From a phage, in assembly GCA_037574385.1 (NCBI GenBank), contig GCA_037574385.1_4529.1: a DNA stretch of 64,000 nt. One strand, given 5' to 3'. Positions within the stretch are counted from its first letter, which is position 1; each line of letters begins with the position of its first letter. Both the position numbers and the translations under genes were made by a program. Positions 3,395 to 53,469 of the stretch are shown here, piece after piece. The notes beneath the pieces are model-generated. The model was given only the letters and a program-made list of their open reading frames with translations. It was not told the origin of the DNA and ran no database searches.

Positions 3395-4321
3395 ATGTCA
3401 GGTTATAATGCACAAAACCCTAAAGAATTAAAGGATGTAATATTACGTCGTTTAGGCGCTCCTATTGTAAATGTCGAATTAACTACAGACCAAATTTATG
3501 ATTGTATTTCACGAGCGTTAGAACTTTATGGCGAATACCATTTTGACGGGTTGAATAAAGGTTTCCATGTATTTTTTGTTGATGACGAAGAAAAATACCG
3601 TCACGGCGTATTTGATATGCGTGGTTCTAATGTATTTGCTGTAACAAGAATTATAAGAACAAACGTTGGCTCTATTACTTCAATGGATGGTAACGCAACT
3701 TATCCATGGTTCACTGATTTCCTTTTAGGAATGGCAGGCGTTTCTGGTGGTATGGGTAGTAATTGTGGTAAATTCTACGGTCCGAACGCTTTTGGTGCCG
3801 ACCTCGGGTATTATTCTCAATTAGTATCTTATATGGGTATGCTTCAAGATATGATTGCTCCTCTTCCAGATTTTTGGTTTAACTCTGCAAACGAGCAATT
3901 AAAAGTAATGGGTAACTTTAGACAGAAAGATGTTATTATCGTTGAATCGTATGTTCGCTCTTATATTGAGACACATAAGATGGTAGGAAATACAGTAGGT
4001 TATGGTCAGGTCGGTCCTCGTGATTCATGGTCTATTTCTGAACGTTATGATAATCCAGACCATAATTTAGTCGGACGTCGAGTTGGTGAAGATCCTGCAA
4101 CTAAACAAGGCGCATATAACAACCGCTGGGTTAAAGATTATGCAACTGCATTAGCTAAAGAGCTTAATGGACAAATTCTTGCTAAACATCAAGGTATGAT
4201 GTTACCTGGTGGTGTCACTGTTGATGGTGTTCGATTAATTGAAGAAGCCCGTTTAGAGAAAGAAGCTTTACGAGAAGAGTTATATTTACTGGACCCTCCT
4301 GCAGGTATTTTGGTAGGTTAA
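3395..4321 (+). CDS. 13: neck protein gp13
   Basis: 308 aa, collinear with T4 gp13 ([23 protein letters not shown]...). Confidence 0.93.
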
Positions 4322-38172: not shown

Positions 38173-38188
38173 GGGAGCCGAAGCTCCC
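38173..38188 (-). other. stem-loop GGGAGC-CGAA-GCUCCC
   Basis: Intergenic GC hairpin between two minus-strand ORFs; no clear U-tract. Confidence 0.4.
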
Positions 38189-38195
38189 AGTTAAA

Positions 38196-38561
38196 TTAGA
38201 TATCGAATTCATTAAGAACTACATCAAAGATTGCTTCGAGATGTTCAGGTTTAGCTCGGTTACTCAGGATATGACGAATCCAAGTTTTAACCAAAAGTTT
38301 ACGATTGACACCGTTCCAGCAAGGATGAGTACCTAAATCACGCTGACGGAAATCATCATCTAATGCAATTTTGAAGTTGGAACCTTCCATCGTGATTGAA
38401 ACCGTGATGCCATTTTCAAATCGCATATAAACGTAATTAGGAGTCATGCACTGTTCGATTTCACAAACTGTACCGTTTTTGTGTTTCCATAAGCAAATAA
38501 CTTCAGAAGAACCAGCGATACCGTTAGAAACATATTTACGTTCGAAGTTGATGTAGTTCAT
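38196..38561 (-). CDS. hypothetical protein (121 aa), member of tandem cassette pair
   Basis: Preceded by early promoter + GGAGA RBS cassette nearly identical to that of the next gene upstream; contains CMTP motif shared with neighbour. Confidence 0.65.
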   Translation of the reverse strand: MNYINFERKYVSNGIAGSSEVICLWKHKNGTVCEIEQCMTPNYVYMRFENGITVSITMEGSNFKIALDDDFRQRDLGTHPCWNGVNRKLLVKTWIRHILSNRAKPEHLEAIFDVVLNEFDI

Positions 38562-38602
38562 TTTATTCTCCAGATGTTTAAGTTGTTTGTTGGTACAGGT
38601 CT

Positions 38603-38631
38603 ATAATAACATAACCTGTACCAAAGTAAAC
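38603..38631 (-). promoter_or_regulatory. early-type promoter GTTTAC-N17-TATTAT
   Basis: Minus strand GTTTACtttggtacaggttatgtTATTATagacc upstream of the 121-aa ORF. Confidence 0.5.
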
Positions 38632-38635
38632 TGTT

Positions 38636-39004
38636 TTATGCAACTTTAATCCAATTGTCTAAATTTAAAACACCTTTGGCTTTCATTTTTTCGATAAGGT
38701 TATCTGCTGTAATGCGTCCATTTTGATACCATGTAACATCTTCAGAGTAACCAGTTTCTTCGTCAACATATGTTTCTGAACGAATTTTACCGGTAATAAT
38801 AGTTTTTAATTCGTATGTGTCACCTGTGAAAAAGTTTGCTAACACAATTTTCCAAGAGAAATCATTTGAAGGACCTTCAGGGGTCATACAACCTACGATC
38901 TCAAATTGCTCTTTGTATAACATCCATTGGAATTCTTTAATTTCGATAGCTTTATAACCGTCGTGGTCTTTACATTCGATGTATGAGTTCAGATTGATTT
39001 TCAT
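38636..39004 (-). CDS. hypothetical protein (122 aa), member of tandem cassette pair
   Basis: Own early promoter (GTTTACtctcc...TACTATAGAC) and identical leader cattttattctccag. Confidence 0.65.
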   Translation of the reverse strand: MKINLNSYIECKDHDGYKAIEIKEFQWMLYKEQFEIVGCMTPEGPSNDFSWKIVLANFFTGDTYELKTIITGKIRSETYVDEETGYSEDVTWYQNGRITADNLIEKMKAKGVLNLDNWIKVA

Positions 39005-39111
39005 TTTATTCTCCAGTTTGTTTTATTGATTAGGTGGTACAAGTCTATAGTAACACATCCTACAGGAGAGTAAACATCTTTTTAAACTTTTTCTGCCCTA
39101 AACACACAAAA

Positions 39112-39129
39112 GGGAGACCGAAGTCTCCC
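39112..39129 (-). terminator. intrinsic terminator GGGAGAC-UUCG-GUCUCCC + CUUUUGUGUGUUU
   Basis: Hairpin 6 nt downstream of the 58-aa basic ORF stop on the minus strand. Confidence 0.8.
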
Positions 39130-39134
39130 TAAAA

Positions 39135-53158: not shown

Positions 53159-53407
53159 TTATTTCCTCAGATTTTTCTTAACAACTTTCCAATCAGCTTT
53201 AAACAATTCAACGTCAGAGTGGTGAATCCAGAATCCTGCACTTTCGCCGTCTTCGTAGAGTGGACATCCGTCACATTCTTCGTTCCAACCCATTTCACGT
53301 AAAGCTTCTTCAGCTTGTTCAAGGAGTTCAGCATCTTTACCAACGACGTTGAAGTACCATTTACCTTTAACTTCAGAATCTTTGATGCTCTGACGTTGTA
53401 ATCTCAT
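53159..53407 (-). CDS. hypothetical protein (82 aa)
   Basis: Start at internal ATG (MRLQRQS...) with GGAGA RBS; track ORF has a 21-codon upstream extension. Confidence 0.6.
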   Translation of the reverse strand: MRLQRQSIKDSEVKGKWYFNVVGKDAELLEQAEEALREMGWNEECDGCPLYEDGESAGFWIHHSDVELFKADWKVVKKNLRK

Positions 53408-53469
53408 TTTATTCTCCTTCACTTTTGATTTGATAGGGCTACTATAACATAACCCTATCTGATTATACA

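What the first reader, a model, noticed from the sequence alone, without database searches (positions are those of the whole stretch)
38196..39085. Tandem pair of promoter-leader-gene cassettes (121-aa and 122-aa ORFs)
Two adjacent minus-strand genes are each preceded by almost the same roughly 80-nt unit: GTTTAC -35, TA(c/t)TAT(a)GAC -10/+1 region, a conserved leader and the identical string cattttattctccag spanning RBS and start codon. The proteins share only a short motif (E-I-x-x-CMTP), so they may be diverged paralogues or unrelated genes captured by a duplicated expression cassette.
Basis: seen in the sequence. Interest (0 to 1): 0.4.

Follow-up and report, generated by a model that had tools for sequence, protein, structure and literature searches.

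The report
Two T4-type early-gene expression cassettes
Two unrelated small genes of an RB69-like T4-type phage (30.8 and 30.7) each have their own known-type early promoter and a ribosome-binding site that matches the published RegB RNase target; the repeated control units look like recombination handles for swapping the gene between them, which is ordinary for these phages.

Summary
The window is an RB69-like Mosigvirus, and the ORFs are genes 30.8 (122 aa) and 30.7 (121 aa). Each follows a T4-type early promoter (GTTTAC-N17-TAyTAT), a 42-43-nt leader and the string CTGGAGAATAAAATG.

The proteins are not paralogues. They fall in different Pfam and PHROG families, hhalign gives 0.07% probability, and the Foldseek hit lists do not cross. 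The shared CMTP motif is chance.

The core promoters and upstream regions are only generically alike (ranks 102 and 427 of 990 cassette pairs). The leaders are unusually alike (rank 2 of 990). GGAGAATAAAA is exactly the published 11-nt RegB/S1 cleavage consensus. Both leaders are predicted to be unstructured.

Comparison with other phages points to recombination between the two cassettes:
- Against RB69, only the 30.8 ORF is swapped, bounded by the cassettes.
- Some lineages have 98-100% identical leaders.
- One contig has a ~1-kb deletion whose junction lies inside the repeat.

This matches the published PeSL model, and the RB69 orthologous promoters were already predicted in 2006.

One side observation may be new. 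The 30.7 promoter sits inside a covarying inverted repeat around its -10 element. Across the genome, early-promoter spacers are complementary to their own leaders (permutation p <= 5e-5).

The parts
39111..39130 (-). Intrinsic terminator hairpin (AGGGAGAC-UUCG-GUCUCCCU, then a T-run) between gene 30.9 and the 30.8 promoter. It is the stem-loop part of a PeSL-type cassette.
   Evidence: Terminator scan; sequence; the orthologous RB69 terminator '30.8<--30.9' was predicted by Nolan 2006; annotated terminator in PhAPEC2.
39076..39105 (-). A-rich region upstream of the -35 element (gcagaaaaagtttaaaaagat), in the position of a UP element. Only generically similar to the same region of the 30.7 unit.
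   Evidence: Sequence; rank 427 of 990 for upstream similarity; A-rich -40..-44 described for T4-like early promoters. A UP-element function is inferred.
39047..39075 (-). Early promoter of gene 30.8: -35 GTTTAC (39075-39070), 17-nt spacer, -10 TACTAT (39052-39047).
   Evidence: Pattern match; census; the RB69 orthologue Pe:132117 was predicted by Nolan 2006. Activity is not tested here.
39015..39046 (-). A/C-rich, G-poor leader of 30.8 (AGACTTGTACCACCTAATCAATAAAACAAACT). It resembles the 30.7-type leader but has no complementary partner in its own spacer.
   Evidence: Alignment; leader pair rank 2 of 990; the 59-nt 5' region has MFE 0 kcal/mol and all 200 shuffles fold at least as well; cassette fold z = -0.7.
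39004..39014 (-). GGAGAATAAAA: the Shine-Dalgarno sequence of 30.8 and an exact match to the 11-nt RegB/S1 endoribonuclease target consensus. Its last A is the A of the ATG.
   Evidence: Exact match; consensus GGAGAAUAAAA / GGAGRAYARAA from Durand 2006. Cleavage is not tested.
38636..39004 (-). Gene 30.8 (122 aa), Pfam Phage_30_8, function unknown. It is a swapped module: 55% identical to RB69 gp30.8 and 37% to T4 gp30.8.
38603..38631 (-). Early promoter of gene 30.7: -35 GTTTAC (38631-38626), 17-nt spacer, TGn, -10 TATTAT (38608-38603). It starts 4 nt after the 30.8 stop codon.
   Evidence: TG before the -10; the RB69 orthologue Pe:131670 was predicted by Nolan 2006.
38614..38624 (-). 5' arm (TTGGTACAGGT) of an 11-bp inverted repeat, lying in the promoter spacer.
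   Evidence: Sequence; duplex -19.6 kcal/mol, rank 0 both ways among 45 cassettes; hairpin z = -3.7, 0 of 200 shuffles.
38590..38600 (-). 3' arm (ACCTGTACCAA) of the inverted repeat, from just after the -10 element into the start of the transcript.
   Evidence: arms covary between genera.
38572..38602 (-). A/C-rich leader of 30.7 (AGACCTGTACCAACAAACAACTTAAACATCT). Unstructured when transcription starts at its own promoter.
   Evidence: The 58-nt 5' region has MFE 0 and all 200 shuffles fold at least as well.
38561..38571 (-). GGAGAATAAAA: the Shine-Dalgarno sequence of 30.7 and a second exact RegB/S1 consensus site.
38196..38561 (-). Gene 30.7 (121 aa), Pfam Phage_T4_Gp30_7, function unknown. 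100% identical to RB69 gp30.7.
   Evidence: AlphaFold pLDDT 85.
38173..38188 (-). GGGAGC-UUCG-GCUCCC tetraloop hairpin after the 30.7 stop codon, with no T-run and no promoter behind it. It closes the two-gene block before gene 30.6.
   Evidence: Sequence; not called as a terminator; only Rfam noise there. Any role as a 3' stabiliser or weak terminator is inferred.

Best explanation
These are two neighbouring immediate-early expression cassettes of the T4 type, driving two unrelated small genes (30.8 and 30.7) in the variable region between rIII and DNA ligase of an RB69-like phage. Each cassette has a strong sigma-70 early promoter (A-rich upstream region, GTTTAC, 17 nt, TGn/TAyTAT) and an unstructured A/C-rich leader. 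Its Shine-Dalgarno sequence is the optimal target (GGAGAAUAAAA) of the phage endoribonuclease RegB with ribosomal protein S1. The expected behaviour is a burst of transcription and translation right after infection, followed by RegB cutting the ribosome-binding site to switch the messages off. The promoter cores are alike only because all early promoters of this phage are alike. The extra similarity of the leaders comes from homologous recombination or gene conversion between the two adjacent cassettes. The same cassettes act as handles for exchanging, inserting or deleting the gene between them, which is the published PeSL model of modular shuffling. Shown here: the anatomy, the non-homology of the proteins, the exact match to the RegB consensus, the unstructured leaders, the mosaic pattern and the cassette-bounded swaps and deletion. 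Inferred: promoter activity and timing, RegB cleavage, and the recombination mechanism.
For: Identity: 98% to Mosigvirus phages. RB69, T4 and PhAPEC2 annotate the ORFs as 30.8 and 30.7. Promoters: GTTTAC-N17-TAyTAT at both genes; the RB69 orthologues were predicted as early promoters, along with the 30.9/30.8 terminator. Proteins unrelated. RegB: Durand 2006 gives GGAGAAUAAAA as the sequence needed for efficient cleavage, states it must be single-stranded, and notes most tested GGAG motifs were Shine-Dalgarno sequences. Only 6 sites in ~164 kb match GGAGRAYARAA; all lie on the early strand, all are the Shine-Dalgarno sequence of an ORF, and two are this pair. regB is present in a 98%-identical genome (Pfam REGB_T4, 6e-69). 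Both 5' regions have MFE 0. The string is kept at 30.8 and 30.7 orthologues in many genera. Recombination: against RB69, identity is 92-100% up to the 30.8 ATG, 55-87% inside the 30.8 ORF, and 92-100% again from the 30.7 cassette onward. Within-genome leader identity ranges from 0.65 (T4) through 0.84 (window) to 0.98-1.00 (L010, L014), while cores stay at 0.63-0.83. L037 lacks ~1 kb present in L036, with an 83-nt junction that aligns to both cassettes. The 30.8 spacer resembles the 30.8 spacers of other genera while its leader resembles a 30.7-type leader. PeSL definition and minicircle crossovers between the -10 element and the ATG.
Against: No transcript or cleavage data exist for this phage. 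Promoter use, the +1 site and RegB cutting all rest on consensus matches and orthology. The accessible text of Durand 2006 does not say whether T4 30.7 or 30.8 were among the cleaved sites. regB is not inside the window itself. Three other cassette pairs in the genome are at least as similar over -35..ATG without being adjacent, so part of the leader similarity could reflect sub-families under common selection rather than exchange between these two. The 30.7 unit lacks the separate upstream terminator that defines a PeSL.
Confidence: 0.8

Rival explanations
1. Tandem duplication of a whole promoter-plus-gene unit, after which the two coding regions diverged beyond recognition while the control regions stayed alike.
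For: Similar ORF lengths (121 and 122 aa), the same orientation and adjacency, an 80% identical 73-74-nt upstream unit, and a shared EIxxCMTP string at the same residue positions.
Against: Different Pfam and PHROG families. hhalign probability 0.07%. Each confident AlphaFold model hits only its own family in BFVD. The secondary-structure orders differ. CMTP varies within the 30.7 family (Y or W variants) and is absent from T4 gp30.8. In other genera one or two other genes separate 30.8 and 30.7.
Confidence: 0.03
2. There is no special relationship: the upstream similarity is just the generic early promoter, leader and RBS consensus of this phage.
For: The core promoter ranks 102 of 990 and the upstream region 427 of 990. 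Many other cassettes carry AGAC..ATCAACAAC..GAGGA leaders. Three non-adjacent cassette pairs score higher overall. GGAGAATAAAA is a functional consensus.
Against: The leader pair ranks 2 of 990, about 4.4 sd above the mean. The shared box GAC(C/T)TGTACCA occurs nowhere else in the window with fewer than 3 mismatches. In related lineages the two leaders are 98-100% identical over 44 nt while the cores are 66-69%. Each genus has its own shared leader string.
Confidence: 0.12
3. The conserved leader and start region is a specific cis-regulatory element of another kind, such as an operator for the translational repressor RegA, a structured RNA switch, or a DNA operator formed by the inverted repeat at the 30.7 promoter.
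For: RegA sites overlap or lie just 5' of the AUG, and regA is present in the related genome. The 30.7 promoter carries an 11-bp inverted repeat around its -10 element.
Against: Both leaders are predicted to have no structure. There is no Rfam match. The conserved string equals the RegB consensus exactly. The arms of the inverted repeat change sequence between genera while keeping their complementarity, which argues for a nucleic-acid structure rather than a fixed protein-binding sequence. RegA binding could not be scored with these tools.
Confidence: 0.05

Closest known systems
PeSL (promoter-early stem-loop) mobile regulatory cassettes of T4-type phages (Arbiol et al. 2010; Comeau et al. 2014)
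   Same: The 30.8 unit has every sequence part: terminator stem-loop, A/T-rich stretch, early promoter, Shine-Dalgarno sequence and ATG, conserved over ~100 bp. It flanks a variable small ORF in a hyperplastic region. Gene swaps and a deletion have their breakpoints in the cassettes, as in the PeSL model.
   Different: The 30.7 unit has no separate upstream terminator; its stem-loop is laid over the promoter itself. Minicircles were not and cannot be tested here. PeSLs were described for RB49/phi1, PST/T4 and nt-1/KVP40, not for RB69-type phages.
T4 early promoters (Pe) as catalogued for T4 and predicted for RB69 (Nolan et al. 2006; Hinton 2010 review)
   Same: GTTTAC -35 element, 17-18-nt spacer, TGn plus a TAnnnT -10 element, A-rich -40s, C-rich -3..-1. 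The orthologous RB69 promoters Pe:131670 and Pe:132117 are in the published list.
   Different: Nothing essential. The published descriptions I could read do not mention complementarity between the spacer and the leader.
RegB/S1 endoribonuclease target sites in T4 early mRNAs (Durand et al. 2006)
   Same: Exact 11-nt consensus GGAGAAUAAAA, used as the Shine-Dalgarno sequence, in an unstructured intergenic leader of an early gene. regB is present in the genome type.
   Different: Cleavage at these two sites has not been shown, here or in the text I could access.
Promoter-inside-hairpin translational control of T4 genes e, soc, 49 and I-TevI
   Same: At 30.7 the promoter lies within a sequence that folds into a hairpin only in RNA coming from upstream; RNA started at the promoter lacks the 5' arm. 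In Karamvirus-type orthologues and several other cassettes the 3' arm is the Shine-Dalgarno sequence itself.
   Different: The known cases use late promoters and always bury the Shine-Dalgarno sequence or AUG. Here the promoter is early, and in this window the hairpin ends 18 nt before the Shine-Dalgarno sequence, which stays free.

Membership tests
T4-type early promoter (Pe) | -35 GTTTAC, 17 +/- 1 nt spacer, -10 TAnnnT (TGn-extended) | tested here: met
   Both units have GTTTAC-N17-TACTAT / TATTAT; TG precedes the -10 element at 30.7.
T4-type early promoter (Pe) | A-rich UP-like region around -40 to -44 | tested here: met
   aaaaagat and cataaaaca lie directly upstream of the -35 elements. 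Function is inferred.
T4-type early promoter (Pe) | Correctly oriented just 5' of an ORF; orthologue listed as an early promoter | tested here: met
   RB69 Pe:131670 and Pe:132117.
T4-type early promoter (Pe) | Transcription immediately after infection, independent of phage protein synthesis | not testable with these tools
   Needs RNA from infected cells.
PeSL cassette | Terminator stem-loop just upstream of the promoter | tested here: inconclusive
   Met for the 30.8 unit (39111-39130). Not met for the 30.7 unit, which starts 4 nt after the 30.8 stop codon and instead has a hairpin overlapping the promoter.
PeSL cassette | Conserved ~100-bp unit including the A/T-rich stretch, promoter, Shine-Dalgarno sequence and ATG, repeated through hyperplastic regions | tested here: met
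   45 cassettes of the same build were found in ~164 kb; the pair ranks 4 of 990.
PeSL cassette | Indels or replacements between close relatives have breakpoints in the cassettes | tested here: met
   The 30.8 ORF swap against RB69 is bounded by the cassettes; the L036/L037 deletion junction lies in the repeat.
PeSL cassette | Formation of minicircles by recombination between flanking cassettes | not testable with these tools
   Needs inverse PCR on infected cells.
RegB/S1 target site | GGA + G/U followed by the 7-nt A-rich consensus (GGAGRAYARAA) | tested here: met
   Exact GGAGAATAAAA at both genes; consensus.
RegB/S1 target site | Single-stranded, intergenic, in an early transcript | tested here: met
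   MFE 0 for both 5' regions; the site is the Shine-Dalgarno sequence downstream of an early-type promoter. Prediction only.
RegB/S1 target site | Phage encodes RegB | tested here: met
   REGB_T4 at 6e-69 in ESh27, which is 98% identical to the window in this region. The gene lies outside the window.
RegB/S1 target site | RegB-dependent cleavage within GGAG in vivo | not testable with these tools
   Needs primer extension with wild type versus a regB mutant.
Paralogous gene pair | Detectable sequence, profile or fold similarity | tested here: not met
   BLASTP E 0.06 over 8 aa; hhalign 0.07%; no cross hits in Foldseek.
RBS-sequestering hairpin with internal promoter (T4 e / soc / 49 / I-TevI type) | Hairpin forms in read-through RNA; the promoter lies inside it, so its own RNA lacks the 5' arm | tested here: met
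   30.7: -20.2 kcal/mol hairpin in read-through RNA against MFE 0 for its own RNA.
RBS-sequestering hairpin with internal promoter (T4 e / soc / 49 / I-TevI type) | Shine-Dalgarno sequence and/or AUG lies within the helix | tested here: not met
   In the window the Shine-Dalgarno sequence is unpaired in the read-through fold. It is met in the Karamvirus-type 30.7 orthologue and in other cassettes.
RBS-sequestering hairpin with internal promoter (T4 e / soc / 49 / I-TevI type) | The internal promoter is a late promoter | tested here: not met
   It is an early-type promoter.

The most novel reading that the evidence does not exclude
Early promoters of T4-type phages are often built into a hairpin. 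The promoter spacer, between the -35 and -10 elements, is complementary to the cassette's own first transcribed bases or to its own Shine-Dalgarno sequence. RNA reading through from upstream therefore folds, while RNA started at the promoter is open. The 30.7 promoter is the clearest conserved case: stems of 11-15 predicted pairs, different arm sequences in at least seven lineages, and G.U wobbles. This would extend the 'promoter inside a hairpin' logic known for late genes (e, soc, 49, I-TevI) to immediate-early genes. It could tie translation, or RegB access, to the gene's own early promoter, and so help explain the poorly understood sharp shut-off of early protein synthesis. A DNA-level role, such as a cruciform that presents the -10 element or marks a recombination site, is not excluded.
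Probability: 0.3. Interest if true: 0.6.

Novelty: already known. Interest (0 to 1): 0.3.

Why it matters
As described, the finding is a textbook piece of T4-type genome organisation: autonomous early cassettes with a RegB-sensitive ribosome-binding site. It is also a clean natural illustration of how repeated regulatory cassettes let small accessory genes be swapped, inserted or deleted without disturbing their neighbours. That is useful for annotation. It names both genes, places both promoters, the terminator and the RegB sites, and warns that 30.8 alleles are mosaic. It does not change understanding.

The part worth a specialist's attention is the side observation. Promoter spacers are complementary to their own leaders, and the 30.7 promoter hairpin is conserved with compensatory changes. 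If this is functional and not already described, it offers a testable link between promoter choice and the fate of the message in the early phase of T4 infection. Reviews state that the shut-off mechanism of that phase is not fully understood.

Tried and rejected
- Generic sigma-70 scan: 4 promoter-like sites against 6.6 expected. It is uninformative for T4-type promoters, although it did find the 30.7 promoter and the terminator.
- Rfam at E <= 1: only terminator-hairpin noise.
- Literature: searches for gp30.7/gp30.8 function and for inverted repeats at T4 early promoters found nothing relevant. The T4 genome review (PMC150520) is not held. I therefore cannot exclude an older description of the spacer/leader complementarity.
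- The extra ORF in p000v-type relatives lies between 30.4 and 30.6 (in the position of T4 30.5), not between the cassettes.
- Counting G.T against A.C mismatches to separate RNA-level from DNA-level selection was confounded by chance extensions into the -35 hexamer. Deep inside stems the count is 4 G.T to 0 A.C, which is only suggestive.
- An intrinsic-terminator role for the 30.7 hairpin was rejected because no U-run follows it.
- Sequestration of the Shine-Dalgarno sequence at 30.7 in this window was rejected because the Shine-Dalgarno sequence is free in the read-through fold.
- A whole-genome census in T4 itself was not run.
Full report
WHAT IS THERE. The window is an RB69-like T4-type phage (genus Mosigvirus). 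The 1.6 kb around the finding is 98% identical to phages phiC120 and ESh27 and 90% identical to RB69. In RB69, PhAPEC2 and T4 the same two ORFs are annotated as genes 30.8 and 30.7. They lie in the block of small genes between rIII/30.9 and DNA ligase. On the minus strand the order is as follows:
- gene 30.9;
- a terminator hairpin (39130-39111);
- an A-rich stretch;
- GTTTAC (39075-39070), 17 nt, TACTAT (39052-39047);
- a 42-nt leader;
- GGAGAATAAAATG;
- gene 30.8 (39004-38636);
- four bases;
- GTTTAC (38631-38626), 17 nt, TATTAT (38608-38603);
- a 41-nt leader;
- GGAGAATAAAATG;
- gene 30.7 (38561-38196);
- a UUCG-tetraloop hairpin (38188-38173) with no T-run;
- gene 30.6.

CHECK OF THE OBSERVATION. 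From the -35 element to the ATG the units are 74 and 73 nt with 59 identical positions. The 15-mer CTGGAGAATAAAATG occurs exactly only at these two places in 64 kb. The protein motif EIxxCMTP exists but is the only similarity, at BLASTP E = 0.06.

IS THE DNA SIMILARITY MORE THAN THE GENERIC EARLY-PROMOTER CONSENSUS? I collected 45 early promoter-leader cassettes. The criteria were GTTTAC with at most one mismatch, a 16-18-nt spacer, TAnnnT, then a Shine-Dalgarno sequence, a start codon and an ORF. The sources were the window plus the first 100 kb of ESh27, which by the hit coordinates lies outside the window. Among the 990 pairs, the 30.8/30.7 pair ranks as follows:
- 4th for -35..ATG;
- 2nd for the leader (score 27 against a mean of 8.6, sd 4.2);
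- 102nd for the -35..-10 core;
- 427th for the 30 nt upstream.
So the promoter itself is generic and the leader is specially shared. Nolan et al. (2006) had already predicted the orthologous RB69 promoters (Pe:131670 and Pe:132117) and the 30.9/30.8 terminator.

THE IDENTICAL RBS STRING. Durand et al. (2006) showed how the T4 endoribonuclease RegB, stimulated by ribosomal protein S1, inactivates early mRNAs. It cuts inside GGAG motifs, most of which were Shine-Dalgarno sequences. The site must be single-stranded, and efficient cleavage in T4 needs the 11-nt sequence GGAGAAUAAAA (general form GGAGRAYARAA). Both genes carry exactly GGAGAATAAAA, with the last A being the A of the ATG. In about 164 kb only six sites match the general consensus. 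All six are on the early strand, all are the Shine-Dalgarno sequence of an ORF, and two of them are this pair. A regB gene is present in the 98%-identical genome ESh27 (Pfam REGB_T4, 6e-69). The first 58-59 nt of both predicted mRNAs have a minimum free energy of 0 kcal/mol, and all 200 shuffles fold at least as well. This fits the requirement for a single-stranded target and for easy ribosome loading. The same string is kept in front of 30.8 and 30.7 orthologues in T4 and in Klebsiella, Enterobacter and Erwinia phage lineages. It is therefore a conserved functional motif, not a trace of recent duplication. Cleavage itself is inferred.

WHY THE LEADERS ARE ALIKE. Four comparative results point to recombination between the two cassettes.
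- Against RB69, identity is 92-100% through 30.9, the terminator and the 30.8 cassette. It falls to 55-87% exactly within the 30.8 ORF and returns to 92-100% from the 30.7 cassette onward. RB69 gp30.7 is 100% identical to the window's protein while gp30.8 is 55% identical. At least four 30.8 allele types sit next to near-identical 30.7 genes.
- Identity between the two leaders of one genome runs from 0.65 in T4 through 0.84 here to 0.98-1.00 in two other lineages. The cores stay at 0.63-0.83, and each genus has its own shared leader string.
- The window's 30.8 spacer (TCTCCTGTAGGATGTG) resembles the 30.8 spacers of other genera (TTCTCCTAGGATTGTG), while its leader is of the 30.7 type. The closest leader overall is the 30.7 leader of a Klebsiella-phage-like contig. 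The unit is therefore a chimera joined near the -10 element.
- Contig L037 lacks about 1 kb (30.8 plus the following sequence) that is present in its relative L036. An 83-nt junction aligns to both the 30.8 and the 30.7 cassette.
This is the behaviour described for PeSLs. Those are ~100-bp units made of a terminator, an A/T-rich stretch, an early promoter, a Shine-Dalgarno sequence and an ATG. They flank variable ORFs and recombine, with crossovers mapped between the -10 element and the ATG. The 30.8 unit is a complete PeSL by sequence. The 30.7 unit lacks the separate upstream terminator.

The box GACCTGTACCA after the 30.7 -10 element is the 3' arm of an 11-bp inverted repeat: TTGGTACAGGT, 13 nt containing the -10 element, then ACCTGTACCAA. 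Its 5' arm lies in the promoter spacer.
- RNA reading through from 30.8 folds it (-20.2 kcal/mol). RNA started at the 30.7 promoter cannot.
- The 30.7 cassette has such a hairpin in seven lineages. ΔG runs from -19.4 to -26.1 kcal/mol and z from -3.7 to -6.8, with 0 of 200 shuffles as good.
- The arm sequences differ between lineages, for example GGTGAGAGTCT/AGACTCTCACC, TGGTGTAGGAGT/ACTCTTACACCA with a G.U pair, and GCTGATTGGGTGT/ACACTCAATCAGC.
- In Karamvirus-type phages the 3' arm is the Shine-Dalgarno sequence itself (CTCCGTTGTAT/ATACAACGGAG).
- The hairpin is weak in two distant lineages.
- The 30.8 cassettes do not have it (z -0.7 here). This fits a 30.8 leader that was copied without its partner arm.

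THE GENOME-WIDE PATTERN. The pattern is general.
- Across the 45 cassettes, spacers pair better with their own leader than with other leaders: mean -9.2 against -7.1 kcal/mol, permutation p <= 5e-5.
- 12 of 45 cassettes have an exact complementary run of at least 7 nt, against 5.3% of non-cognate pairs.
- The same holds for 31 cassettes from other genera: -12.7 against -8.4 kcal/mol, p <= 5e-5.
- Controls are negative for the 30 nt upstream of the -35 element (p = 0.35). The signal lies mainly in the first 14 nt after the -10 element.
- Several cassettes bury their Shine-Dalgarno sequence, for example CTCCTCTAGTTG/CAACTAGAGGAG.
The nearest known logic is the late-promoter-inside-a-hairpin control of T4 genes e, soc, 49 and I-TevI. 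In this window the 30.7 Shine-Dalgarno sequence stays free, so that membership test fails on a defining feature. The role of the hairpin here is open. It could be a 3' barrier or insulator in read-through RNA, or it could have a DNA-level role. I found no description of this in the papers I could read. The older T4 promoter literature is not in the held library.

VERDICT. The finding is real. It is an instance of known things: two T4-type early promoter cassettes, one of them a full PeSL, in front of the unrelated genes 30.8 and 30.7. Their ribosome-binding sites are the published RegB target, and their leaders have been homogenised by the same cassette recombination that shuffles gene 30.8. 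The paralogue idea is rejected. The 'duplicated expression cassette' idea is partly right. Interest for the finding as given is low. The promoter-embedded hairpin is recorded as the most novel reading that the evidence does not exclude.

Noticed in passing
window 38590-38624 (-); also the ESh27 loci L041 and L042 and loci L004-L040: Early-promoter spacers are complementary to their own leader. 12 of 45 cassettes have an exact complementary run of at least 7 nt against 5.3% of non-cognate pairs, with permutation p <= 5e-5 in two independent sets. The 30.7 promoter hairpin is conserved with different arm sequences in seven lineages.
   Followed up: partly
L041:29178-29240, L042:20170-20230, L042:32914-32970, L041:25707-25770 (ESh27, outside the window): Several early cassettes carry an anti-Shine-Dalgarno stretch right after the -35 element (GTTTACttCTCC...) that pairs perfectly over 8-12 nt with their own Shine-Dalgarno region, with compensatory changes between related cassettes. 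Read-through RNA would hide the Shine-Dalgarno sequence, and with it any RegB site.
   Followed up: partly
window 38636-39004 (-) versus L001 (RB69), L003 (T4), L010, L014, L018: Gene 30.8 exists as at least four strongly diverged alleles (100%, ~85%, 55% and 37% identity classes) next to near-identical 30.7 genes. The divergence starts at the ATG and ends at the stop codon.
   Followed up: yes
L036:1408-2500 versus L037:2423-2505 (IMG/VR contigs with the same cassette as Klebsiella phage Mineola): A natural ~1-kb presence/absence difference (30.8 plus the next gene). Its junction is an 83-nt stretch that matches both cassettes.
   Followed up: yes
window 53405-53419 (-): The third exact GGAGAATAAAA site in the window serves as the Shine-Dalgarno sequence of an 82-aa ORF. 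No GTTTAC-type promoter was detected just upstream by my census.
   Followed up: no
window 38636-39004 (-), gp30.8 residues 13-16 and 39-49: Invariant D-H-D-G and C-x-T-P-x-G-x-S-x-D-F motifs across 21 homologues suggest a binding or catalytic site. T4 gp30.8 lacks them. No fold match gives a function.
   Followed up: partly
window 38196-38561 (-), gp30.7 residues 72-92: A very conserved R-x-R-D-L-(G)-x-H-P-x-W-(N)-x-x-N-R-(K)-x-x-V-K segment at the start of the helical C-terminal part; brackets mark positions that are only nearly invariant. Function unknown.
   Followed up: no
window 38173-38188 (-): A GGGAGC-UUCG-GCUCCC hairpin after 30.7 with no T-run and no promoter behind it. It looks like half a PeSL, and T4 has an equivalent hairpin with a different stem.
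   Followed up: no
L001 (RB69) 30.8 promoter, locus ~3770-3800 on the minus strand: RB69 has TTCTAT where the window and PhAPEC2 have TACTAT at the 30.8 -10 element, which loses the conserved A at position 2. This may be a weakened promoter in the reference strain.
   Followed up: no
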